From sequence record NC_031937.1: a stretch of DNA of 38,979 nucleotides; one strand, given 5' to 3'. The translations under genes were made by a program, and so were the position numbers. The notes below the pieces were generated by a model, which saw nothing but the letters and a program-made list of their open reading frames with translations, was not told the origin of the DNA and did no database searches. Position 1 is the stretch's first letter, and every line of letters starts with the position of its first letter. Shown in pieces: positions 203 through 36,442 of the stretch. Source of the DNA: Escherichia phage LM33_P1.

Positions 203-325
203 AACCATAAGTCACAACCATAGGTCACAGCCTACCTCTCACAACCATAAGTCATAACCTACAGTCTCACTAACCTACAGTCTCAACCATAAGACACCAA
301 CACCTACAGTCATAGACCTACAGTT
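203..325. repeat. Left-end array of short direct repeats (ACCATAAG x3-4 and CCTACAGT x4)
   Basis: Motifs recur at 10-40 nt spacing, read directly; position analogous to the short repeat arrays next to the terminal repeat in T7. Confidence 0.6.
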
Positions 326-16175: not shown

Positions 16176-17038
16176 GCGAAAAGAAAATAGCTCTGGTGCT
16201 AGACGGTGACTACTTAGTGTTCTCTTCTATGGCTGCTGCCGAGGACGAGACAGACTGGGGTGATGGCATCTGGACCCTTATCTGCGACCATGAGAAGGCT
16301 CGTCGTATCCTTGAGAACACCATCGCTGAAATCGTTAAGAAGCGTAAGGCGTGGAAAGACGCTAAGATTGTGATGTGCTTTACTGACGATAACAACTGGC
16401 GTAAGGACGTGCTACCTACCTATAAGGCCAACCGTAAAGGTTCTCGCAAGCCTGTAGGTTACAAGAAGTTCGTAGCCGAAGTGATGGCTGACCCACGGTT
16501 CAACAGCTTCCTACGTCCTACACTTGAGGGTGATGACTGTATGGGTATCATCGGGACACGACCTCAGATTGTAGGCTGTGACCATGCTGTTCTGGTGTCC
16601 TGCGATAAGGACTTCAAGACCATCCCGAACTGTGAGTTCTTCTGGTTAACCACTGGTGAAATTCTAAGTCATACTACTGCTGAGGCAGACTACTGGCACA
16701 TGGAGCAGACCATCAAGGGTGACACTACAGATGGCTACGGTGGCATTCCGGGGATGGGCGAGGATACTACTCGTGCGTTCCTTGACGAGCCGTACTACTT
16801 CGTGCAGGAGAGCCGTGAGCTTAAGACTGGCAAGAACAAAGGCCAGATTAAGACTGAGTGGAAGAAGTATCCTAAGCGTGAAGACATGACGCTGTGGGAC
16901 TGCATGGTGACTCTGGCTGCTAAAGCTGGGATGACCGAGGAGGAACTTCTGGTCCAAGCTCAGGTAGCTCGTATTTGTCGAGCCTCCGACTACGACCCTA
17001 CGTCCAAGGAGGTCATCCTATGGACACCATCCATGTAA
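16166..17038 (+). CDS. 6: 5'-3' exonuclease
   Basis: Similarity to T7 gp6 (WRK....YKANRK...KPVGY, SCDKDFKTIPNC.F.W.TTG, WH..QTIKGD.TDGY.GI.G, TLWDC......KAGMTEE); true start may be GTG at 16172 after GGAGG. Confidence 0.9.
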   Translation: MPVSEKKIALVLDGDYLVFSSMAAAEDETDWGDGIWTLICDHEKARRILENTIAEIVKKRKAWKDAKIVMCFTDDNNWRKDVLPTYKANRKGSRKPVGYKKFVAEVMADPRFNSFLRPTLEGDDCMGIIGTRPQIVGCDHAVLVSCDKDFKTIPNCEFFWLTTGEILSHTTAEADYWHMEQTIKGDTTDGYGGIPGMGEDTTRAFLDEPYYFVQESRELKTGKNKGQIKTEWKKYPKREDMTLWDCMVTLAAKAGMTEEELLVQAQVARICRASDYDPTSKEVILWTPSM

Positions 17039-17112
17039 TTTACTGGGTCGGACTTCTGGCCCTTTACTGCATGTACAAGTGGTTCGGGTCGAACAACCGT
17101 CCTAAACACTGA
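17020..17112 (+). CDS. Small hydrophobic peptide (30 aa) in the gene 6.3 position
   Basis: ATG 7 nt after AAGGAGG, overlapping gene 6 stop; MDTIHVIYWVGLLALYCMYKWFGSNNRPKH; below the ORF-track cutoff. Confidence 0.4.
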   Translation: MDTIHVIYWVGLLALYCMYKWFGSNNRPKH

Positions 17113-18439: not shown

Positions 18440-20008
18440 ATGGCTGAACGTGAAGGGTTCGCTGCTGAAGGCGCTAAGTCAGTTTATGATAGATTGAAGA
18501 ACGGACGACAGCCTTACGAGACCCGCGCACAGAACTGTGCTGCTGTCACTATCCCGTCACTGTTTCCTAAGGAATCAGACAACTCGTCTACTGAATATAC
18601 CACTCCGTGGCAAGCTGTAGGTGCTCGCTGCTTGAACAACTTGGCTGCAAAGCTGATGTTGGCGTTATTCCCTCAGTCACCGTGGATGCGACTGACAGTC
18701 TCCGAATATGAGGCCAAGACCTTGAGTCAGGACTCAGAGGCTGCTGCTCGTGTTGACGAAGGGCTTGCTATGGTCGAGCGTGTGTTGATGGCCTACATGG
18801 AGACTAACAGTTTCCGTGTGCCATTGTTCGAAGCTCTGAAGCAGCTTATCGTCTCCGGTAACTGTCTGCTTTACATTCCAGAGCCTGAACAGGGTACTTA
18901 CAGTCCGATGCGGATGTACCGCTTAGTGTCTTACGTTGTTCAACGTGATGCGTTCGGTAACATCTTGCAGATTGTGACTCTCGACAAGGTAGCTTTCAGT
19001 GCTCTACCGGAAGACGTGAAGTCTCAACTCAATGCAGACGACTATGAGCCTGACACCGAGCTTGAAGTGTATACGCACATCTACCGTCAAGACGACGAGT
19101 ATCTACGCTACGAGGAAGTGGAAGGGATTGAGGTAGCAGGGACCGATGGTTCCTACCCGCTGACTGCATGTCCGTACATCCCGGTACGAATGGTTCGACT
19201 GGATGGTGAAGACTACGGTCGTTCTTACTGCGAGGAGTATCTGGGCGACCTTAACTCGCTGGAGACGATTACAGAAGCTATCACCAAAATGGCTAAGGTA
19301 GCCTCCAAGGTGGTGGGACTCGTTAACCCGAACGGTATCACGCAACCTCGACGTCTGAACAAGGCGGCTACAGGTGAGTTCGTGGCTGGTCGCGTTGAGG
19401 ACATCAACTTCCTGCAACTGACGAAAGGTCAGGACTTTACGATTGCCAAGTCGGTGGCTGACGCTATAGAGCAACGTTTAGGCTGGGCCTTCCTTCTTAA
19501 TAGTGCTGTTCAGCGTAATGCCGAGCGGGTCACTGCTGAAGAGATTCGTTATGTTGCTGGCGAACTGGAGGCGACCTTAGGTGGCGTGTACTCAGTACAA
19601 TCACAAGAGCTTCAGTTGCCTATCGTCCGTGTGCTGATGAACCAGCTTCAGTCTGCTGGCATGATTCCTGACCTTCCGAAAGAAGCGGTAGAGCCTACGG
19701 TCTCCACTGGTCTTGAAGCGTTAGGCCGTGGTCAAGACTTAGAGAAGCTGACTCAGGCAGTCAACATGATGACCGGGCTACAGCCTCTGGCTCAGGACCC
19801 AGACATTAACTTGCCGACCCTGAAGCTGCGACTGCTGAATGCCTTAGGCATTGACACCGCTGGTCTACTCCTTACGCAGGACGAGAAGATTCAGCGCATG
19901 GCTGAACAGTCGTCTCAACAGGCAGTAGTCCAAGGTGCTGGTGCTGCTGGTGCCAACATGGGCGCTGCTGTAGGTCAGGGAGCTGGTGAGGACATGGCTC
20001 AAGCCTAA
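18440..20008 (+). CDS. 8: Head-to-tail connector (portal) protein
   Basis: Collinear similarity to T7 gp8 (GAKSVY.RLKN.R.PYETRAQNCA..TIPSLFPK.SDN.ST.Y.TPWQAVGAR.LNNLA.KLMLALFP). Confidence 0.93.
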   Translation: MAEREGFAAEGAKSVYDRLKNGRQPYETRAQNCAAVTIPSLFPKESDNSSTEYTTPWQAVGARCLNNLAAKLMLALFPQSPWMRLTVSEYEAKTLSQDSEAAARVDEGLAMVERVLMAYMETNSFRVPLFEALKQLIVSGNCLLYIPEPEQGTYSPMRMYRLVSYVVQRDAFGNILQIVTLDKVAFSALPEDVKSQLNADDYEPDTELEVYTHIYRQDDEYLRYEEVEGIEVAGTDGSYPLTACPYIPVRMVRLDGEDYGRSYCEEYLGDLNSLETITEAITKMAKVASKVVGLVNPNGITQPRRLNKAATGEFVAGRVEDINFLQLTKGQDFTIAKSVADAIEQRLGWAFLLNSAVQRNAERVTAEEIRYVAGELEATLGGVYSVQSQELQLPIVRVLMNQLQSAGMIPDLPKEAVEPTVSTGLEALGRGQDLEKLTQAVNMMTGLQPLAQDPDINLPTLKLRLLNALGIDTAGLLLTQDEKIQRMAEQSSQQAVVQGAGAAGANMGAAVGQGAGEDMAQA

Positions 20009-20026
20009 ACTATCACTATAGGAACA
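20004..20026 (+). promoter_or_regulatory. Phage RNAP promoter (CTAAACTATCACTATAGGAACA)
   Basis: Consensus match; upstream of scaffold gene. Confidence 0.75.
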
Positions 20027-20102: not shown

Positions 20103-20987
20103 ATGTCCCAATCAGTTTATGCCGAGTTCGGCGTTAGTCCTAATGCAATCACTGGTTCCGTTGAGGACCTGAACGAACACCAGAAGTCTATGCTTGAACA
20201 GGACGTAGCTGTTCGTGATGGCGATGACGCTATTACCTTCAAGCAACTGGAAGCCGAAAACGAAGAGGCTACCGAAGAAGACGAGAACGTCGAAGAGACT
20301 GAAGGTGAAGAAGACCACGAGTCAGATGATGAAGAGTCTGAGACCGATGGTGAGCAGCCGGAGTTCATCGAACTAGGTGATGCGCCGAAAGAGCTGACTG
20401 AAAGTGTCACCGCTCTGGATGAAAACGAAGCTGCATTCGACGACATGGTGTCTTCTGCTGTAGAAGCTGGCAAGGTCACTGCTGATGAAATTACCGCTAT
20501 CAAGGCTGAATACGCCAAGGACGGTAAGCTGTCTGACGCATCCTACGCTAAGTTGCAGGAAGCAGGTTACACAAAGCGTTTCGTAGATTCGTTTGTCCGT
20601 GGTCAGGAAGCTCTGGCTGAACAGTATGCTGCTGGTGTGGTTCGCTACGCTGGTGGTGCTGAACAGTTTAATCGCATCCTGTCACACCTTGAGTCCAACG
20701 ACCCGTCAACTCGTGAAGCATTGGAAGCTGCCATCGTTCGTAAGGACATTGCGACTACCAAAGCTCTGCTGAATCTGGCTGGCAAGACTCTGGGTAAAGC
20801 TGTAGGCGTTAAACCTCAGCGTACCATCACCAATCAGGCTAAACCTGTGGTTGCACCTAAGGCTCCTCAGACCGAAGCATTCAGCTCCAAGGCTGACATG
20901 ATTAAGGCTATGAGTGACCCGCGATACCTGCGTGACGCTAAGTACACGATGGAAGTTCGAGCTAAGGTAGCTGCCTCAAGCCTGTAG
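20103..20987 (+). CDS. 9: Capsid assembly (scaffolding) protein
   Basis: Similarity to T7 gp9 (acidic E/D-rich centre, ..SYAKL.E.GYTK.F.DS..RGQEAL.EQY, C-terminal AMSDPRY..DA.Y); start at ATG after RBS AAAGGAGAG (track ORF begins 20070). Confidence 0.88.
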   Translation: MSQSVYAEFGVSPNAITGSVEDLNEHQKSMLEQDVAVRDGDDAITFKQLEAENEEATEEDENVEETEGEEDHESDDEESETDGEQPEFIELGDAPKELTESVTALDENEAAFDDMVSSAVEAGKVTADEITAIKAEYAKDGKLSDASYAKLQEAGYTKRFVDSFVRGQEALAEQYAAGVVRYAGGAEQFNRILSHLESNDPSTREALEAAIVRKDIATTKALLNLAGKTLGKAVGVKPQRTITNQAKPVVAPKAPQTEAFSSKADMIKAMSDPRYLRDAKYTMEVRAKVAASSL

Positions 20988-20988
20988 G

Positions 20989-21011
20989 ACTAAACTATCA
21001 CTATAGGGAGA
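20989..21011 (+). promoter_or_regulatory. Phage RNAP promoter, exact class III-like (CTAAACTATCACTATAGGGAGACC) upstream of capsid gene
   Basis: Best consensus match; followed by 5' stem-loop GGGAGACC...GGTTTCCC and AT-rich leader, as for T7 phi10. Confidence 0.8.
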
Positions 21012-21114
21012 CCAAGAGACAGACTCAAGGTTTCCCCTATTACTTAAGTCCATACGGATTGGGCGTACAGTAAGTAATAAACTTTATTTTTCAATTGAAT
21101 AGGAGAATTATCAT

Positions 21115-22164
21115 ATGGCAAACGTTCCGGGTCAGAAAGTTGGTACAGACCAAGGTAAAGGCAACTCTGGTTCCGACGCTCTGGCGTTGTTCCTGAAGGT
21201 ATTTGCTGGCGAAGTCCTGACCGCATTCACTCGCCGCTCTGTAACTGCTGACAAGCATATTGTCCGTACCATTCAGAACGGTAAGTCTGCTCAGTTCCCG
21301 GTCATGGGTCGCACCTCTGGTGTGTATCTGGCTCCGGGTGAGAGACTGTCCGATAAGCGTAAAGGTATCAAACATACCGAGAAAGTGATTACCATTGATG
21401 GTCTGCTGACTGCCGATGTGATGATTTTCGACATTGAAGACGCGATGAACCACTATGACGTGGCTGGTGAGTATTCCAACCAGTTGGGTGAAGCTCTGGC
21501 TATCGCTGCCGATGGTGCGGTACTGGCTGAGATGGCTATTCTGTGTAACCTACCGGCTGCATCTGATGAAAACATCGCTGGTCTTGGCAAAGCGTCTGTG
21601 CTGGAAGTTGGTACTAAAGCAGACCTGAACACTCCGGCTAAGCTGGGTGAAGCAATCATCGGTCAACTGACCATTGCTCGTGCGAAGCTGACATCCAACT
21701 ACGTTCCTGCTGGCGACCGTTACTTCTACACCACGCCGGACAACTACTCTGCAATCCTCGCGGCTCTGATGCCGAACGCTGCTAACTATGCTGCGCTGAT
21801 TGACCCAGAGACTGGTAACATCCGTAACGTAATGGGCTTCGTGGTTGTTGAAGTTCCACACTTGACTCAGGGTGGTGCTGGGGAAACTCGTGGTGCCGAT
21901 GGTATCACTATTGCGACTGGTCAGAAGCACGCCTTCCCAGCTACTGCTACTGGTGATGTTAAAGTTGCTCTGGACAACGTTGTGGGCCTGTTCTCTCACC
22001 GTTCTGCTGTAGGTACTGTTAAGCTGCGTGACTTGGCGCTGGAACGTGACCGTGACGTCGATGCTCAGGGCGACCTGATTGTTGGTAAGTACGCTATGGG
22101 TCACGGTGGTCTGCGTCCAGAAGCAGCAGGCGCACTGGTTTTCACAGCGGCGTCAGCGGGTTAA
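21115..22164 (+). CDS. 10: Major capsid protein 10A
   Basis: Similarity to T7 gp10A; strong RBS; 349 aa. Confidence 0.93.
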   Translation: MANVPGQKVGTDQGKGNSGSDALALFLKVFAGEVLTAFTRRSVTADKHIVRTIQNGKSAQFPVMGRTSGVYLAPGERLSDKRKGIKHTEKVITIDGLLTADVMIFDIEDAMNHYDVAGEYSNQLGEALAIAADGAVLAEMAILCNLPAASDENIAGLGKASVLEVGTKADLNTPAKLGEAIIGQLTIARAKLTSNYVPAGDRYFYTTPDNYSAILAALMPNAANYAALIDPETGNIRNVMGFVVVEVPHLTQGGAGETRGADGITIATGQKHAFPATATGDVKVALDNVVGLFSHRSAVGTVKLRDLALERDRDVDAQGDLIVGKYAMGHGGLRPEAAGALVFTAASAG

Positions 22165-22427
22165 CGACCTTTAAGGCCCTCTCTACAGAGGGTCCTACCT
22201 TAGAGACGTATAGTTCTACGGTGGGAACCAGCCTGAAGGTTGACTTCCCTGAGCTTTCAGATGTGACCGATTGGTCGCTGCTTGAGGTGACTACGCCTGA
22301 TGGTGTTAGCTACTCCCGTAGAACCAACAGTCTCTACTTCAAGGCCACCTCTGGCGTGGAAGGTCTGGTGATTGTTGGGTATGACGGGACGCCTGTGCGT
22401 TCCTTCAACGTATCTTTCACAAACTAA
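22137..22427 (+). CDS. 10: Capsid 10B C-terminal extension reached by -1 frameshift at GGTTTTC
   Basis: -1 frame is open from the slippery run GGTTTTC (22137-22143) to TAA at 22427; same arrangement as T7 10A/10B. Confidence 0.55.
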   Translation, partial: GFHSGVSGLTTFKALSTEGPTLETYSSTVGTSLKVDFPELSDVTDWSLLEVTTPDGVSYSRRTNSLYFKATSGVEGLVIVGYDGTPVRSFNVSFTN

Positions 22428-22430
22428 TTG

Positions 22431-22470
22431 AAACCCCTTGGGTGCCTTCGGGTGCTTGAGGGGTTTTTTT
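22431..22470 (+). terminator. T-phi-like terminator for phage RNAP (G-U-rich hairpin plus T7 tract)
   Basis: AACCCCTTGGGTGCCTTCGGGTGCTTGAGGGGTTTTTTTG closely resembles T7 T-phi. Confidence 0.85.
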
Positions 22471-22485
22471 GCTTAAGGAGGGACT

Positions 22486-22575
22486 ATGGTCCTTATTTAC
22501 ACAGGGTTAGCACTATTCGTCTTATTCTGGGCGTACCTGCTGTCCAGCTCACCGTCTAGCGCCTATGACCGTTAA
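22486..22575 (+). CDS. Small hydrophobic peptide (29 aa) between T-phi and gene 11
   Basis: Strong RBS TAAGGAGGG 5-7 nt upstream of ATG; MVLIYTGLALFVLFWAYLLSSSPSSAYDR; below the ORF-track cutoff. Confidence 0.4.
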   Translation: MVLIYTGLALFVLFWAYLLSSSPSSAYDR

Positions 22576-22586
22576 GGAGTAAACCT

Positions 22587-23153
22587 ATGGCTCAATACAT
22601 TCCACTGAATGCTAACGATGACTTAGATGCCATCAACGATATGTTAGCAGCTATCGGTGAACCAGCAGTCCTACAGCTTGACGAAGGTAACGCTGACGTC
22701 TCGAACGCTCAACGTATCCTGCATCGTGTCAATCGTCAGGTCCAAGCTAAAGGCTGGAACTTTAACATCAACGAAGCTGCTGTCCTGACGCCTGATGTCC
22801 AAGACAACAGGATTAGATTCCTGCCGTCTTACCTTCGGGTCATGACTGCTGGTGCTACCAGTTACTACAGCAACATGGGGGGCTATCTCTATGACCTGTC
22901 CACTCAGTCCACGACCTTCACTGGACCAATTACAGTCGAACTGGTGGAGATGAAACCGTTCGCTGAGATGCCTGTAGTATTCCGTGACTACATCGTTACC
23001 AAGGCTAGCCGTGAGTTCAACGCTAAGTTCTTCGGTAGCCCAGAGTCTGAACTGTACCTTCGTGAGCAGGAAGCAGAACTCTATCAGCAGGTTATGGAAT
23101 ACGAGATGGACACTGGTCGCTACAACATGATGTCTGACATTGGGAGGGACTAA
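22587..23153 (+). CDS. 11: Tail tubular protein A
   Basis: Similarity to T7 gp11 (..ND.L..IGEP.V..L..G); RBS TAAGGAG. Confidence 0.85.
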   Translation: MAQYIPLNANDDLDAINDMLAAIGEPAVLQLDEGNADVSNAQRILHRVNRQVQAKGWNFNINEAAVLTPDVQDNRIRFLPSYLRVMTAGATSYYSNMGGYLYDLSTQSTTFTGPITVELVEMKPFAEMPVVFRDYIVTKASREFNAKFFGSPESELYLREQEAELYQQVMEYEMDTGRYNMMSDIGRD

Positions 23154-23380
23154 TGGCTAGTCACAACCTGAAGATTCACCGCCAGCACTTTGGTCCGGTA
23201 CAGCTAGGTCTAAAGACAGCAGAGCTGAGACTTAACGACCGGGACTTTAAGGTTGGCGACTGGCTTATCCTGAATGAGTGGGACAACGGGTATACTGGAC
23301 AACAGGTAGCACGTAAGGTTGTCCACATTGCTGACGTTGGTGACATCGCTGAGGGATACGTCCTAATGAGTATGATTTAA
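23153..23380 (+). CDS. Small ASCH/PUA-like (DUF3850-type) protein (75 aa)
   Basis: Pattern LKIH...F.....G.KT.E.R.NDRDF.VGD.L.L.EWD...YTG......V..I recalled as typical of ASCH-like domains; ATG overlaps gp11 stop (TAATG). Confidence 0.6.
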   Translation: MASHNLKIHRQHFGPVQLGLKTAELRLNDRDFKVGDWLILNEWDNGYTGQQVARKVVHIADVGDIAEGYVLMSMI

Positions 23381-23389
23381 GGAGGGCAT

Positions 23390-25747
23390 ATGCCGCTTAT
23401 TACGCAAAGCATAAAAAATCTTAAGGGTGGCATTAGCCAACAGCCTGACATCCTGAGGTTCTCAGACCAAGGCGAGGCTCAAGTTAACTGCTGGTCATCC
23501 GAGAGTGATGGCCTCCAGAAGCGTCCACCTACAGTCTTCAAGCGACGTCTTAACATCGACGTTGGGAGCAACCCTAAGTTCCACCTGATTAACCGTGATG
23601 AGCAGGAGCAGTATTACATCGTGTTCAACGGGTCCAACATTCAGGTAGTCGACTTGAGCGGTAATCAATACTCAGTTTCAGGTGCGGTAGACTACGTTAA
23701 GTCGTCCAACCCGCGAGATGACATCCGTGTCGTTACAGTTGCAGACTATACGTTCATCGTGAACCGTAAGGTTGTCGTTAACGGTGGAAGCGAGAAGTCA
23801 CACTCTGGTTATAATCGTAAAGCTCGTGCTTTAATTAACCTGCGTGGTGGACAGTATGGTCGCACCCTTAAGGTAGGAATCAACGGAGGCGTTAAGGTTT
23901 CGCATAAGTTGCCAGCAGGTAATGATGCCGAGAATGACCCTCCTAAGGTTGATGCTCAGGCTATCGGTGCAGCTCTGAGAGACCTTCTTGTTGCTGCTTA
24001 CCCTACCTTCACGTTCGACCTTGGGTCTGGATTCCTGTTAATCACTGCCCCTTCAGGGACTGACATTAACTCAGTGGAGACGGAGGATGGCTACGCTAAC
24101 CAGCTAATCAGCCCAGTACTCGACACGGTGCAAACAATCTCTAAGCTGCCTCTTGCAGCTCCAAATGGGTACATCATTAAGATTCAAGGTGAGACCAACA
24201 GTAGCGCCGATGAGTATTACGTGATGTATGACTCCAACACTAAGACGTGGAAGGAGACAGTAGAGCCGGGAGTGGTCACTGGGTTCGATAACACCACAAT
24301 GCCACATGCTCTGGTTAGACAATCTGACGGCTCCTTTGAGTTCAAGACTCTGGACTGGTCTAAGCGGGGTGCTGGTAATGATGACACAAACCCTATGCCT
24401 AGCTTCGTGGATGCTACGATTAACGATGTGTTCTTCTACAGGAACAGGCTAGGGTTCTTGTCAGGAGAGAACGTAATCATGAGCCGTTCAGCCAGCTACT
24501 TTGCGTTCTTCCCTAAGAGTGTGGCGACATTGAGTGATGATGACCCTATTGACGTAGCTGTAAGTCACCCTAGAATCTCAATACTTAAGTATGCCGTTCC
24601 GTTTAGCGAGCAGCTACTACTTTGGTCAGATGAGGTGCAGTTCGTGATGACAAGCTCGGGGGTCCTTACCTCGAAGTCTATCCAGCTTGATGTAGGCTCA
24701 GAGTTTGCCTTAGGAGATAACGCCAGACCGTTCGCTGTAGGACGCTCAGTCTTCTTCTCAGCGCCTCGTGGATCATTCACCAGTATTAAGCGATACTTCG
24801 CTGTAGCAGATGTGTCTGACGTGAAGGATGCCGATGATACCACTGGTCACGTACTGTCCTATATCCCTAACGGGGTGTTTGACATTCAAGGTACAGGGAC
24901 TGAGAACTACATCTGCGTCAACTCCACAGGTGCATACAACCGAATCTACATCTACAAGTTCTTGTTTAAGGACGGCGTACAACTTCAAGCCTCTTGGTCG
25001 CACTGGGAGTTCCCTAAAGCTGATAAGATTCTGGCGTCTGCGTCGATTGGCTCTACCATGTTCATTGTTCGTCAGCACCAATGGGGTGTGGACATTGAGC
25101 ACCTTAAGTTCATCAAGGAGGCAACCGACTTTCCATTAGAGCCGTATAGACTCCACGTTGACTCTAAGGTGTCTATGGTAATCCCAATTGGCTCATATAA
25201 CGCTGACACCTATGAGACTACGGTCGACATTGGTTCTGCTTATGGTGGAAACGCTCCGTCTCCCGGTCGGTACTATCTGATTGACAGTCAGGGTGCCTAT
25301 GTGGACCTTGGTGAACTGACCAACATCTCAACTGTGGCTATACTCAATGGCGATTGGTCGGGACGTACAGTGTTCATCGGACGGTCTTATCTGATGTCCT
25401 ACAAGTTCTCACGGTTCCTGATTAAGATTGAAGACGATAGTGGCACTCAGTCTGAAGACACTGGACGTCTACAGCTTCGTAGGGCTTGGGTCAACTACAA
25501 GGACACTGGCGCTCTTAGACTCATTGTCAGAAACGGTGAGCGGGAGTTCGTGAACACCTTTAATGGGTACACCCTTGGTCAGCAACCCATCGGGACTACC
25601 AACATTGGGGACGGTCAGTATCGCTTCGCTATGAATGGTAACGCATTAACCACGAGTCTAACCTTAGAGTCAGACTATCCTACCCCAGTGTCCATCGTTG
25701 GGTGTGGCTGGGAGGCGTCATACGCTAAGAAAGCTCGTTCCGTCTAA
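23390..25747 (+). CDS. 12: Tail tubular protein B
   Basis: Size (785 aa), synteny and similarity to T7 gp12; RBS TAAGGAGGG. Confidence 0.9.
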   Translation: MPLITQSIKNLKGGISQQPDILRFSDQGEAQVNCWSSESDGLQKRPPTVFKRRLNIDVGSNPKFHLINRDEQEQYYIVFNGSNIQVVDLSGNQYSVSGAVDYVKSSNPRDDIRVVTVADYTFIVNRKVVVNGGSEKSHSGYNRKARALINLRGGQYGRTLKVGINGGVKVSHKLPAGNDAENDPPKVDAQAIGAALRDLLVAAYPTFTFDLGSGFLLITAPSGTDINSVETEDGYANQLISPVLDTVQTISKLPLAAPNGYIIKIQGETNSSADEYYVMYDSNTKTWKETVEPGVVTGFDNTTMPHALVRQSDGSFEFKTLDWSKRGAGNDDTNPMPSFVDATINDVFFYRNRLGFLSGENVIMSRSASYFAFFPKSVATLSDDDPIDVAVSHPRISILKYAVPFSEQLLLWSDEVQFVMTSSGVLTSKSIQLDVGSEFALGDNARPFAVGRSVFFSAPRGSFTSIKRYFAVADVSDVKDADDTTGHVLSYIPNGVFDIQGTGTENYICVNSTGAYNRIYIYKFLFKDGVQLQASWSHWEFPKADKILASASIGSTMFIVRQHQWGVDIEHLKFIKEATDFPLEPYRLHVDSKVSMVIPIGSYNADTYETTVDIGSAYGGNAPSPGRYYLIDSQGAYVDLGELTNISTVAILNGDWSGRTVFIGRSYLMSYKFSRFLIKIEDDSGTQSEDTGRLQLRRAWVNYKDTGALRLIVRNGEREFVNTFNGYTLGQQPIGTTNIGDGQYRFAMNGNALTTSLTLESDYPTPVSIVGCGWEASYAKKARSV

Positions 25748-25771
25748 CTTATTGAAGGGCCTATAGATTTA

Positions 25772-25794
25772 CCTTAACTATCACTATAGGGACT
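25772..25794 (+). promoter_or_regulatory. Phage RNAP promoter (CCTTAACTATCACTATAGGGACT)
   Basis: Consensus match; position equivalent to T7 phi13. Confidence 0.75.
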
Positions 25795-35992: not shown

Positions 35993-36442
35993 ATGCTCGA
36001 ATTTTTAAAGAGAGCGGCTCCGTGGTTACTTGCAGCAGTGATGTTTGCTGGTGGCTACCACACCGCTAACAATAAGTGGGAGGCTAAGGTCAATGCAGAA
36101 TACACCTCGAATCTTAAGGCATCGGAAGATACAAGGCTTGCTGTCCAAGCTGAAGTCAACAAAGTGTCCAAACGGTTTCAGGACGAAATGTCCTCGCTGG
36201 AAGGCAGCACTGATAGGATTATTGCTGACCTTCAGTCTGACAATAAGCGGTTGCGCATCCGAGTCAAACCAACGAGTGGAACCACGCAAAGTGACGGTCG
36301 ATGCTTCATTGATGGTTACGCCGAACTTGACGAACGAGATGCTAAACGTCTTATCGCCATCGGAGTGAAAGGAGACAAGTGGATTAAGGCCCTTCAAGAC
36401 ACTGTGAGAGCCTTACAGCAAGAGAAGGAGGTGACGCATTGA
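35993..36442 (+). CDS. 18.5: Rz-like i-spanin
   Basis: Similarity to T7 gp18.5 (MLEFL....PW.LA...[30 protein letters not shown]...GD.WI.ALQDT.R.LQ). Confidence 0.8.
36093..36368 (+). CDS. 18.7: Rz1-like o-spanin lipoprotein embedded in +1 frame within Rz
   Basis: Embedded ORF encodes signal-like [15 protein letters not shown] with lipobox-like ISGC and C-terminal ..MV.PNLT.EMLNV; start codon uncertain. Confidence 0.55.
   Translation: MQNTPRILRHRKIQGLLSKLKSTKCPNGFRTKCPRWKAALIGLLLTFSLTISGCASESNQRVEPRKVTVDASLMVTPNLTNEMLNVLSPSE

What the first reader, a model, noticed from the sequence alone, without database searches (positions are those of the whole stretch)
22486..22575. Unannotated 29-codon hydrophobic ORF with a near-perfect Shine-Dalgarno right after the T-phi terminator
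TAAGGAGGG sits 5 nt upstream of an ATG that opens a 29-codon ORF (MVLIYTGLALFVLFWAYLLSSSPSSAYDR) between the terminator and gene 11. T7 has no gene here. Because T-phi is leaky, the ORF would be expressed from read-through late transcripts. A single-TM micropeptide could act in lysis timing or membrane perturbation.
Basis: partly seen in the sequence, partly recalled or inferred. Interest (0 to 1): 0.45.

Follow-up and report, generated by a model that had tools for sequence, protein, structure and literature searches.

The report
Tiny membrane-peptide gene before tail gene 11
The 29-codon reading frame is very probably a real but optional phage gene for a tiny membrane peptide; it uses the start signals that its relatives use for tail gene 11, belongs to an unstudied family found at this one spot in several groups of T7-like phages, and has no known function.

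Summary
The ORF (22486-22575), its SD (TAAGGAGG, 22474-22481) and the terminator (22430-22470) are as described. The window is Kayfunavirus LM33_P1, not T7. The SD and ATG are the gene 11 initiation region of relatives. ORF-less Kayfunaviruses and T7 run from this SD-ATG straight into gene 11. LM33_P1 has a 101-nt cassette there, ending in a second SD whose TAA is the ORF's stop.

Within the LM33_P1-type allele the coding signal is weak (10 nonsynonymous, 6 synonymous). Homologues at the same junction settle it: a second Kayfunavirus allele (MFYLLTALGLFVSFWAIILLTGPCSPYDR), Przondovirus (MFIVLSAVSLAVATMLYVVVTGPCSPYDK) and a 37-aa Molineuxvirinae form. Synonymous sites between alleles are saturated (pS 0.8-0.9, pN 0.3). 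Identity is 18/18/9 of 28 at codon positions 1/2/3 (P=0.005). Pooled within-clade changes are 19 synonymous to 25 nonsynonymous (P=0.009), and the off-frames look neutral.

All members have one roughly 19-residue hydrophobic helix and a polar P-x-S tail, ending Y-D-[R/K/H/C] in the 29-aa forms. The gene is dispensable and patchy: CLB_P1 lacks it with gene 11 only 1.4% different. No Pfam, PHROG or Rfam family and no paper covers it. GenBank calls the identical peptide "hypothetical protein".

Verdict: a genuine accessory micro-gene of unknown function. A lysis role is untested.

The parts
19999..20023 (+). Phage RNA-polymerase promoter (consensus CTAAACTATCACTATAGGGA), one of two that can feed transcripts through the terminator
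   Evidence: Repeat family D1, 11 copies in the window
20984..21008 (+). Phage promoter in front of capsid gene 10; the last promoter before the ORF (the next is at 25767-25791, after gene 12)
22430..22470 (+). T-phi-type intrinsic terminator: 17-pair hairpin plus a run of seven T
   Evidence: It is nearly identical in relatives with and without the ORF
22474..22481 (+). Shine-Dalgarno TAAGGAGG, 4 nt before the ATG. It corresponds to the gene 11 SD of ORF-less Kayfunaviruses and of T7
   Evidence: A GGAGG core is kept in all 13 allele-A haplotypes despite indels just upstream
22486..22575 (+). 29-codon micro-ORF MVLIYTGLALFVLFWAYLLSSSPSSAYDR: hydrophobic helix at residues 1-19 and a polar tail at 20-29. 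The stop TAA is at 22573-22575
22486..22586 (+). 101-nt cassette (ATG to ATG) that is absent from CLB_P1, Peacock and other Kayfunaviruses. It is bracketed by the direct repeat CTATGG (22484-22489 and 22585-22590)
   Evidence: The Przondovirus equivalent is bracketed by a perfect 15-nt repeat, AGGAGGCTTTATGTT, present once in an ORF-less relative
22573..22579 (+). Second Shine-Dalgarno, TAAGGAG, serving gene 11. Its first three bases are the stop codon of the micro-ORF, and the gene 11 ATG follows 7 nt later
   Evidence: The same stop-in-SD layout occurs in allele B (TAGGAGG) and Przondovirus (TAAGGAGG); in Molineuxvirinae the ORF overlaps the gene 11 start
22587..23153 (+). Gene 11 (tail tubular protein A / tail adaptor), 188 aa, translated immediately after the micro-ORF

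Best explanation
The ORF is a genuine but dispensable late gene of Kayfunavirus LM33_P1. It encodes a 29-residue single-pass membrane peptide: residues 1-19 form the membrane helix and residues 20-29 form a short polar tail.

It belongs to an uncharacterised family that occupies one fixed site, between the T-phi-type terminator and tail gene 11, in Kayfunavirus (two old alleles), Przondovirus and some Molineuxvirinae.

The gene is a roughly 100-nt cassette. It starts at the SD and ATG that ORF-less relatives use for gene 11. It carries at its 3' end a replacement SD and ATG for gene 11, with its own stop codon inside that SD.

It is transcribed only when the phage RNA polymerase reads through the terminator. 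It is translated from one of the strongest initiation sites in the genome. Ribosomes finishing it are released 11 nt before the gene 11 ATG, so gene 11 can be made by re-initiation as well as by direct initiation.

Shown here: the anatomy, the homologues, the frame-specific constraint, dispensability and patchy distribution. Inferred: read-through expression, membrane insertion (probably N-terminus out and C-terminus in, because the only basic residue is C-terminal) and coupling to gene 11.

My committed guess for the molecular role is that the peptide binds an inner-membrane protein of the host or phage through its helix and conserved tail, in the manner of small bacterial membrane regulators. 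That would give a host-dependent advantage such as counter-defence, exclusion of competing phages or tuning of late envelope events. I think forming a pore is less likely. I put the gene's reality at about 0.75-0.8 and this particular role at no more than about 0.35.
For: Homologous peptides sit at the identical junction in four lineages.

Allele A versus allele B: amino-acid identity is 16-18 of 30 in frame 0, against 6-7 of 29 in the other frames. Nucleotide identity at codon positions 1/2/3 is 18/18/9 of 28 (Fisher P=0.005). pS is 0.77-0.91 and pN is 0.31-0.38.

Within allele B and within Przondovirus, dN/dS is 0.25-0.31. Pooled within-clade changes are 19 synonymous to 25 nonsynonymous against a neutral 26% synonymous (P=0.009). 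Off-frame controls give 10:29 and 8:32.

The TGPCSPYD tail of allele B and Przondovirus is invariant across the five distinct DNA haplotypes I hold, although five of its eight codons differ synonymously among them (sequences).

Length is exactly 29 aa in three lineages. The ORF is open in all 13 allele-A haplotypes and every one keeps a GGAGG core.

Every member has a 19-residue window with mean hydropathy 2.1-2.6.

The SD context is the same as for genes 12 and 14, and strong SDs are confined to real gene starts.

There is no promoter between 20984 and 25767. T7 T-phi is described as inefficient by design (PMC9157156).

Dispensability and patchiness: CLB_P1 lacks the ORF at 1.4% gene 11 divergence, and the A, B, absent and endonuclease states are interspersed on the gene 11 tree.
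Against: There is no direct evidence of translation or of the peptide itself.

Constraint is only moderate (dN/dS about 0.25-0.5, against about 0.02 for gene 11). Within the LM33_P1-type allele alone it is not distinguishable from neutrality (10 nonsynonymous to 6 synonymous).

One natural variant (22664UKE3-2) carries a 1-nt deletion that rewrites the last four residues (YDR to MTAKE) and is apparently viable. Residue 29 also varies within allele A (R, H or C).

LM33_P1's own allele lacks the Cys and two of the Pro residues of the TGPCSPYD motif.

Homology to the Molineuxvirinae form rests on about 53% identity plus synteny, with a tblastn E-value near 1-2.

Many close relatives thrive without the gene, so any function is conditional. 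Nothing here identifies a partner or a phenotype.
Confidence: 0.75

Rival explanations
1. Passenger ORF. The roughly 100-nt segment is a neutral indel created by duplication of, or recombination at, the gene 11 ribosome-binding site. It is translated only because it sits behind the old gene 11 SD and ATG. The peptide does nothing, and the segment persists by hitch-hiking.
For: The ORF starts at the initiation region that relatives use for gene 11. It is flanked by direct repeats, perfect over 15 nt in Przondovirus. It is absent from near-identical phages. Within allele A the tally is 10 nonsynonymous to 6 synonymous, and a frameshifted tail is tolerated. From the genetic code alone, a random 28-codon extension stays open about a quarter of the time.
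Against: A neutral segment would not keep the same length, frame, hydrophobic helix and polar tail across four lineages whose synonymous sites are saturated. The excess of synonymous change is specific to this frame. The SD core is kept despite indels around it.
Confidence: 0.12
2. Leader or coupling ORF. What matters is the act of translating it, not the peptide. Translation delivers ribosomes to the gene 11 SD, or the conserved C-terminal residues stall the ribosome, and either effect sets gene 11 output.
For: The stop codon lies inside the gene 11 SD in three lineages, and the ORF overlaps the gene 11 ATG in the fourth. The most conserved residues are the last eight or nine, which would be in the ribosome tunnel at termination.
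Against: Gene 11 has a good SD of its own with 7-nt spacing and no masking structure. Local folds around both initiation sites are no better than shuffles (z from 0 to -1). ORF-less relatives express gene 11 directly from the same upstream SD. A pure coupling device would not need a conserved 19-residue hydrophobic helix. The peptide is too short for its helix to leave the ribosome before termination, so a force-sensing stall of the MifM or SecM type cannot operate (inference from the known tunnel length of about 30-40 residues). The frameshift variant and the R/H/C variation at residue 29 change the tail without loss of viability.
Confidence: 0.08
3. Lysis-timing or pore-forming peptide. The peptide acts as a holin, antiholin or membrane-depolarising toxin.
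For: It is a late, strongly translated, single-helix hydrophobic peptide of the same size as membrane-active toxins such as TisB (size from general knowledge; hydropathy).
Against: The phage already has a T7-family holin (PF10746, E=3.7e-22), an i-spanin and a lipobox o-spanin. The micro-ORF matches no holin or other Pfam or PHROG family. The helix has no charged or strongly polar residue to line a pore (sequences). Relatives without it are normal lytic phages.
Confidence: 0.12
4. RNA element. The segment acts as RNA, for example as a processing site, a stabiliser of read-through transcripts or a small RNA, and the ORF is incidental.
For: It lies directly after a terminator in a read-through transcript, and T7-like phages use RNA processing sites between genes (general knowledge).
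Against: No Rfam match is anywhere near threshold. Folding of 22425-22610 is no better than shuffles beyond the terminator itself (z=-0.99). The two Kayfunavirus alleles share only 54% of nucleotides but 52-59% of amino acids, with third positions changed most.
Confidence: 0.03

Closest known systems
T-phi / gene 11 junction of phage T7 and of ORF-less Kayfunaviruses (CLB_P1, Peacock, K1F type)
   Same: Same terminator, same GCT-(T/G)AAGGAGG SD a few bases after the T-run, and same ATG.
   Different: In those phages the ATG opens gene 11 itself. In LM33_P1 it opens the 29-codon ORF, and gene 11 uses a second SD and ATG 101 nt downstream.
Deposited 'hypothetical protein' gene calls (URY99520.1 of phage HC13, QZI78483.1 and others; UniRef A0A9E7M778; WQZ00629.1 of Klebsiella phage cmc355D; UFK26379.1 of ZK1)
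   Same: URY99520.1 and QZI78483.1 have the identical 29-aa sequence. The others are the Przondovirus and Molineuxvirinae homologues.
   Different: They are automatic gene calls with no family, name, function or publication. Most records with the sequence do not annotate it at all.
Phage morons (accessory genes inserted between conserved genes)
   Same: A small optional gene sits between two core genes, is present or absent among near-identical genomes, and is exchanged as a cassette.
   Different: Classical morons bring their own promoter and terminator (general knowledge). This cassette has neither. It borrows the neighbour's SD and ATG and supplies a replacement, so it is embedded in the host operon.
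Small single-helix membrane regulators of bacteria (for example KdpF and PmrR at 29 aa, AcrZ, MgrB, MgtS)
   Same: Size, one hydrophobic helix and a short polar tail. These act by binding a larger membrane protein (general knowledge; hydropathy).
   Different: There is no sequence similarity. The origin is phage. The motif has no counterpart in 185,579 bacterial species genomes. No partner is known.
T7-family holin gp17.5 and small membrane toxins (TisB-type)
   Same: Small, hydrophobic and, for the holin, late-expressed.
   Different: The holin is 64 aa here, matches PF10746 and is present separately. The micro-ORF matches nothing and has no polar or charged face.
Kayfunavirus core micro-gene at 17020-17112 (30 aa, overlaps the end of the exonuclease gene)
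   Same: Same size class, a hydrophobic stretch and a strong SD.
   Different: That gene is in 196 records, including K1F and the Salmonella phages, so it is core. The ORF studied here is in about a quarter of comparable records and is an indel.

Membership tests
Micro-ORF family at the terminator/gene 11 junction of Autographiviridae (defined here) | Position: directly after the T-phi-type terminator and directly before tail tubular protein A (gene 11) | tested here: met
Micro-ORF family at the terminator/gene 11 junction of Autographiviridae (defined here) | 29 aa (37 in Molineuxvirinae), an N-terminal hydrophobic helix of about 19 residues, and a polar tail with invariant P23 and S25, ending Y-D-[R/K/H/C] in the 29-aa forms | tested here: met
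   LM33_P1 has SSSPSSAYDR where allele B and Przondovirus have TGPCSPYD[R/K]
Micro-ORF family at the terminator/gene 11 junction of Autographiviridae (defined here) | Stop codon inside or overlapping the gene 11 initiation region | tested here: met
T7-family holin (Pfam PF10746) | Match to the family profile | tested here: not met
   No Pfam hit for the micro-ORF. The phage's own gp17.5 homologue at 35442-35636 matches with E=3.7e-22
Rz1-type o-spanin or other lipoprotein | Lipobox with an invariant Cys after a signal-like helix | tested here: not met
   The LM33_P1 peptide has no Cys. In allele B and Przondovirus the Cys is preceded by G-P, which is not a lipobox. The real o-spanin ORF lies within 36045-36368
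Classical moron | Own promoter and own terminator flanking the inserted gene | tested here: not met
   No phage promoter between 20984 and 25767. The only terminator is the resident T-phi upstream. No sigma-70-like site was found on the + strand of 21000-24000
Regulatory leader or arrest peptide (TnaC, SecM, MifM types) | Translation or stalling controls a masked downstream SD or a terminator through alternative RNA structures | tested here: inconclusive
   No structure masks the gene 11 SD (z about 0). Stalling itself cannot be tested with these tools
Any described RNA family (Rfam 15) | Covariance-model match at the gathering score | tested here: not met
   The best matches score 18-20 bits against thresholds of 36-70
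Any PHROG family | Profile match | tested here: not met
   No family for three of four peptides. One chance-level hit for the fourth (E=0.29)

The most novel reading that the evidence does not exclude
A family of roughly 29-residue membrane peptides is maintained in enterobacterial T7-like phages as a three-state polymorphism (allele A, allele B or absent, with a homing endonuclease sometimes taking the same slot). It sits at one fixed site and is carried on a self-contained cassette that takes over the neighbour's ribosome-binding site and supplies a replacement.

The combination of anciently diverged alleles in backbones that are 90% or more identical, near-restriction to phages of E. coli and Klebsiella, and easy loss would fit a host-specific arms-race function. 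Examples are blocking a membrane-bound defence system or excluding competing phages. If so, this would be one of the smallest such phage effectors.
Probability: 0.2. Interest if true: 0.65.

Novelty: new member of a known kind. Interest (0 to 1): 0.4.

Why it matters
LM33_P1 and several relatives that carry this ORF are candidate therapeutic phages, so every expressed gene in them should be accounted for. At 90 nt including the stop, the ORF sits at the lower size limit of common gene callers. That is probably why identical sequences are annotated in some records and not in others.

Nature has already supplied near-isogenic phages with allele A, allele B and no ORF, which makes the function directly testable.

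The cassette architecture takes over the neighbour's SD and ATG and supplies a replacement with the stop codon inside it. It is a tidy example of how a gene can be inserted into, or lost from, a tightly packed operon without disturbing the downstream gene.

If the peptide turns out to target a host membrane protein or defence system, it would add a very small effector to the phage repertoire.

Tried and rejected
I used tblastn with four family members instead.

2. The representative-library phmmer search with the window peptide padded to 30 aa returned only an allele-A variant and one repetitive chance hit, P0006.

3. Origin of the insert: blastn in distant mode found it nowhere except this site in 47 Kayfunavirus records and not in 5,426 E. 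coli genomes. Degenerate motif patterns found nothing in 185,579 bacterial species genomes.

4. In IMG/VR the motif pattern found three known allele-B genomes plus two chance hits inside unrelated long ORFs. The metagenome scan found only two more allele-B Kayfunavirus genomes.

5. RNA-element reading: no Rfam hit and no structural excess. Rejected.

6. Hidden promoter in the insert: the phage promoter consensus derived from the window does not occur there. Rejected.

7. Replacement for a missing lysis gene: the lysis cassette is complete. Rejected.

8. Alternative frame: the Pipis record annotates a 34-aa 'single TM' CDS in another frame, starting with TTG inside the terminator. That frame contains stop codons in allele B and Przondovirus and shows neutral substitution patterns. 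Rejected.

9. Direction of the event (insertion or repeated deletion) could not be settled. T7 and most relatives have the short form. However, ORF-less Kayfunaviruses exist with both the A-type and the B-type upstream SD, and homologues in three lineages argue that the cassette is old.

10. Literature: no paper contains the peptide strings. Searches for a description of a gene between genes 10 and 11, and for T7 deletion between short repeats, were unproductive.

Full report
WHAT IS THERE

The window is the genome of Kayfunavirus LM33_P1, a K1F-like relative of T7 (100% identity to OZ035813.1). The ATG at 22486 opens a 29-codon ORF, MVLIYTGLALFVLFWAYLLSSSPSSAYDR, ending with TAA at 22573-22575. 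TAAGGAGG lies at 22474-22481, 4 nt before the ATG. A 17-pair hairpin (22430-22467) and a run of seven T, of T-phi type, end 4 nt before the SD. Gene 11 starts at 22587.

The signal is not a chance one. Only 16 ATGs in the whole window, counting both strands, have an SD match of 7 nt or more at a spacing of 3-10 nt. All 16 lie on the coding strand and almost all are gene starts. Genes 12 and 14 use the same TAAGGAGG+4 context.

THE SD AND ATG BELONG TO GENE 11 IN RELATIVES

Kayfunaviruses CLB_P1 and Peacock read ...GGGGTTTTTTTGCTTAAGGAGGGCCTATGGCTCAATAC..., which is the same SD and ATG running directly into gene 11 (MAQY...). T7 has the same layout, GAGGGGTTTTTTGCTGAAAGGAGGAACTATATG followed by gene 11.

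LM33_P1, HC13 and Vec13 have 101 extra nucleotides between that ATG and the second codon of gene 11. The extra segment ends with a second SD and ATG, TAAGGAGTAAACCTATG, and the TAA of that SD is the stop codon of the ORF. The segment is bracketed by the direct repeat CTATGG.

So the ORF is a presence/absence cassette. It uses the initiation signals that serve gene 11 elsewhere and provides new ones for gene 11.

IS IT A GENE?

Thirteen DNA haplotypes of the LM33_P1-type allele (allele A) all keep the ORF open from the same ATG with a GGAGG core upstream. However, the changes among them are about 10 nonsynonymous to 6 synonymous. One phage (22664UKE3-2) has a 1-nt deletion that rewrites the last residues. 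Taken alone, allele A is not convincing.

The decisive evidence came from loci fetched through gene 11 and from tblastn with the variants found. The same junction holds the following forms:
- A second Kayfunavirus allele B, in about 19 phage records: MFYLLTALGLFVSFWAIILLTGPCSPYDR and MCYLLIALGLFVSFWVTMLLTGPCSPYDR.
- A Przondovirus form in six Klebsiella phages: MFIVLSAVSLAVATMLYVVVTGPCSPYDK.
- A 37-aa form in 17 Klebsiella and Proteus Molineuxvirinae: MYYLLCVTLLLFASFWCYVLATGPVSVAERRDNANSK.

All of them follow a terminator-like hairpin and a strong SD. All of them end in, or overlap, the gene 11 initiation region.

Comparing allele A with allele B:
- Nucleotide identity is only 54%, but 16-18 of 30 residues are shared in frame 0, against 6-7 of 29 in the other two frames.
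- Identity at codon positions 1/2/3 is 18/18/9 of 28 (Fisher P=0.005).
- pS is 0.77-0.91 (saturated) and pN is 0.31-0.38.

Within allele B and within Przondovirus, dN/dS is 0.25-0.31. Pooling the within-clade changes of all four lineages gives 19 synonymous to 25 nonsynonymous, against a neutral expectation of 26% synonymous (binomial P=0.009). The two off-frames give 10:29 and 8:32, as neutrality predicts.

The TGPCSPYD tail is invariant across the five distinct allele-B and Przondovirus DNA haplotypes I hold, although five of its eight codons differ synonymously among them (sequences).

Constraint is therefore real and specific to this frame. It is moderate: gene 11 in the same phage pairs has pN 0.008-0.012 at pS 0.35-0.39.

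WHAT KIND OF PRODUCT

Every member has a 19-residue window with mean Kyte-Doolittle hydropathy of 2.1-2.6, beginning at residue 1-4. It is followed by a short polar tail whose only basic residue is at or near the C-terminus. This is the signature of a single-pass membrane peptide. N-out/C-in topology is inferred from the positive-inside rule.

No Pfam, PHROG or Rfam family matches. No excess RNA structure exists beyond the terminator or around either initiation site. The motif is absent from 185,579 bacterial species genomes. Allele A DNA is absent from 5,426 E. coli genomes.

EXPRESSION

The phage's own promoter consensus, CTAAACTATCACTATAGGGA, occurs at 19999 and 20984 and next at 25767. The ORF and genes 11, 11.1 and 12 can therefore only be transcribed by read-through of the terminator. 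This is an inference. The T7 counterpart terminator is described as inefficient by design (PMC9157156 abstract).

Ribosomes finishing the ORF stop inside the gene 11 SD, 11 nt before its ATG. Coupling by re-initiation is therefore plausible, but gene 11 also has a competent SD of its own.

POPULATION PATTERN

In the phage collection, allele A is in about 47 records and allele B in about 19, out of 243 Kayfunavirus-like records that match the region. Nearly all carriers are labelled as E. coli phages. The many Salmonella, Enterobacter and Citrobacter relatives almost all lack the ORF. This may reflect clade structure as much as host.

On a gene 11 tree the A, B and absent states are interspersed. 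CLB_P1 (absent) differs from LM33_P1 by 1.4%, which is less than Vec13 (allele A, 2.0%). Allele-B phages cluster among ORF-less ones.

Flanks of allele-A and allele-B phages are mostly above 90% identical, while the ORF is 54% identical. The boundaries fall at the SD and at the gene 11 ATG. Because synonymous sites are also far more diverged than in gene 11, the two alleles are old lineages exchanged as cassettes. They are not the result of fast local evolution.

ORF-less genomes exist with both the A-type and the B-type upstream SD. In Przondovirus the cassette is bracketed by a perfect 15-nt repeat, AGGAGGCTTTATGTT, that occurs once in an ORF-less relative. Loss by recombination between the duplicated initiation regions is thus mechanistically easy; deletion between short direct repeats is well known in T7 from general knowledge, though I could not retrieve a citation. 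I could not decide whether the short form is ancestral or the product of repeated loss.

The junction is also used by a homing-type endonuclease VII gene in one IMG/VR phage (L018; PF02945, E=1.6e-19).

FUNCTION

The gene is dispensable, and the phage has its own T7-family holin, i-spanin and o-spanin. The helix has no charged or strongly polar residue.

Neither is tested.

The alternatives are less likely, for the reasons given under each rival: a functionless passenger ORF, a pure leader or coupling ORF, and an RNA element.

WHAT IS KNOWN

The identical peptide is already deposited as 'hypothetical protein' in four Kayfunavirus records and in UniRef. The Przondovirus and Molineuxvirinae forms are deposited likewise. 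Most records leave it uncalled. One record (Pipis) annotates a different, unsupported frame. No paper in the searchable library contains the peptide strings.

It is best described as a new, uncharacterised member of the broad class of small accessory phage membrane proteins, with an unusual way of sitting in its operon.

VERDICT

Interest is moderate (0.4).

Noticed in passing
window 17020-17112 (+): A second hydrophobic micro-ORF (30 aa, MDTIHVIYWVGLLALYCMYKWFGSNNRPKH) with SD AAGGAGGT at 6 nt, overlapping the 3' end of the exonuclease gene. Unlike the ORF studied, it is core: tblastn finds it in 196 records, including K1F and the Salmonella Kayfunaviruses, and it is often unannotated there.
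   Followed up: partly
L018 267-698 (IMG/VR UViG_3300045988_000061): At the same terminator/gene 11 junction this Kayfunavirus carries a 143-aa endonuclease VII / His-Me finger ORF (PF02945, E=1.6e-19) instead of the micro-ORF. The junction is therefore an insertion hot spot.
   Followed up: partly
L020 (= Escherichia phage ZG49) about 560-580: ZG49 has allele B but lacks the terminator hairpin. The gene 10B tail runs ...ACGCCTGAGTGGTTTTTTTTGC..., as if a deletion of about 150 nt had fused the 10B tail to the T-run. Its micro-ORF and tail genes may no longer be behind a terminator.
   Followed up: no
window 22221-22427 (+) compared with L022 and L034: The frameshift extension of the capsid protein (10B tail) is itself a swapped cassette. 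LM33_P1 has a 68-aa tail ending ...VSFTN, while allele-B phages L022 and L034 have an unrelated shorter Ala/Lys-rich tail. The 10A sequence before it and the terminator after it are conserved. The LM33_P1 tail has no Pfam match.
   Followed up: no
window 23153-23380 (+): A 75-aa ORF sits between genes 11 and 12, a position T7 leaves empty. It matches DUF3850/ASCH (PF12961, E=1.9e-19) and is annotated 'RNA-binding protein' in some relatives. Its ATG overlaps the gene 11 stop (ATGA-type overlap).
   Followed up: partly
L014 220-324 (Escherichia phage Pipis, PV714130.1): This record annotates a 34-aa CDS, described as 'single transmembrane domain', in a different frame starting with TTG inside the terminator stem, rather than the conserved 29-codon frame. 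That frame has stop codons in allele B and Przondovirus.
   Followed up: yes
PV615262.1 (hit H56): A record labelled Acinetobacter phage vB_Aba_01KA (39,611 bp) carries the identical allele-A peptide and is almost the same length as Escherichia phage vB_Eco_1RS (39,612 bp). The host label looks doubtful.
   Followed up: no
window 203-301 (+): Short tandem-like repeats (AACCATAAGTCACAACC, four copies) lie near the start of the window. The public record OZ035813.1 is circularly permuted relative to the window by 3,376 nt.
   Followed up: no
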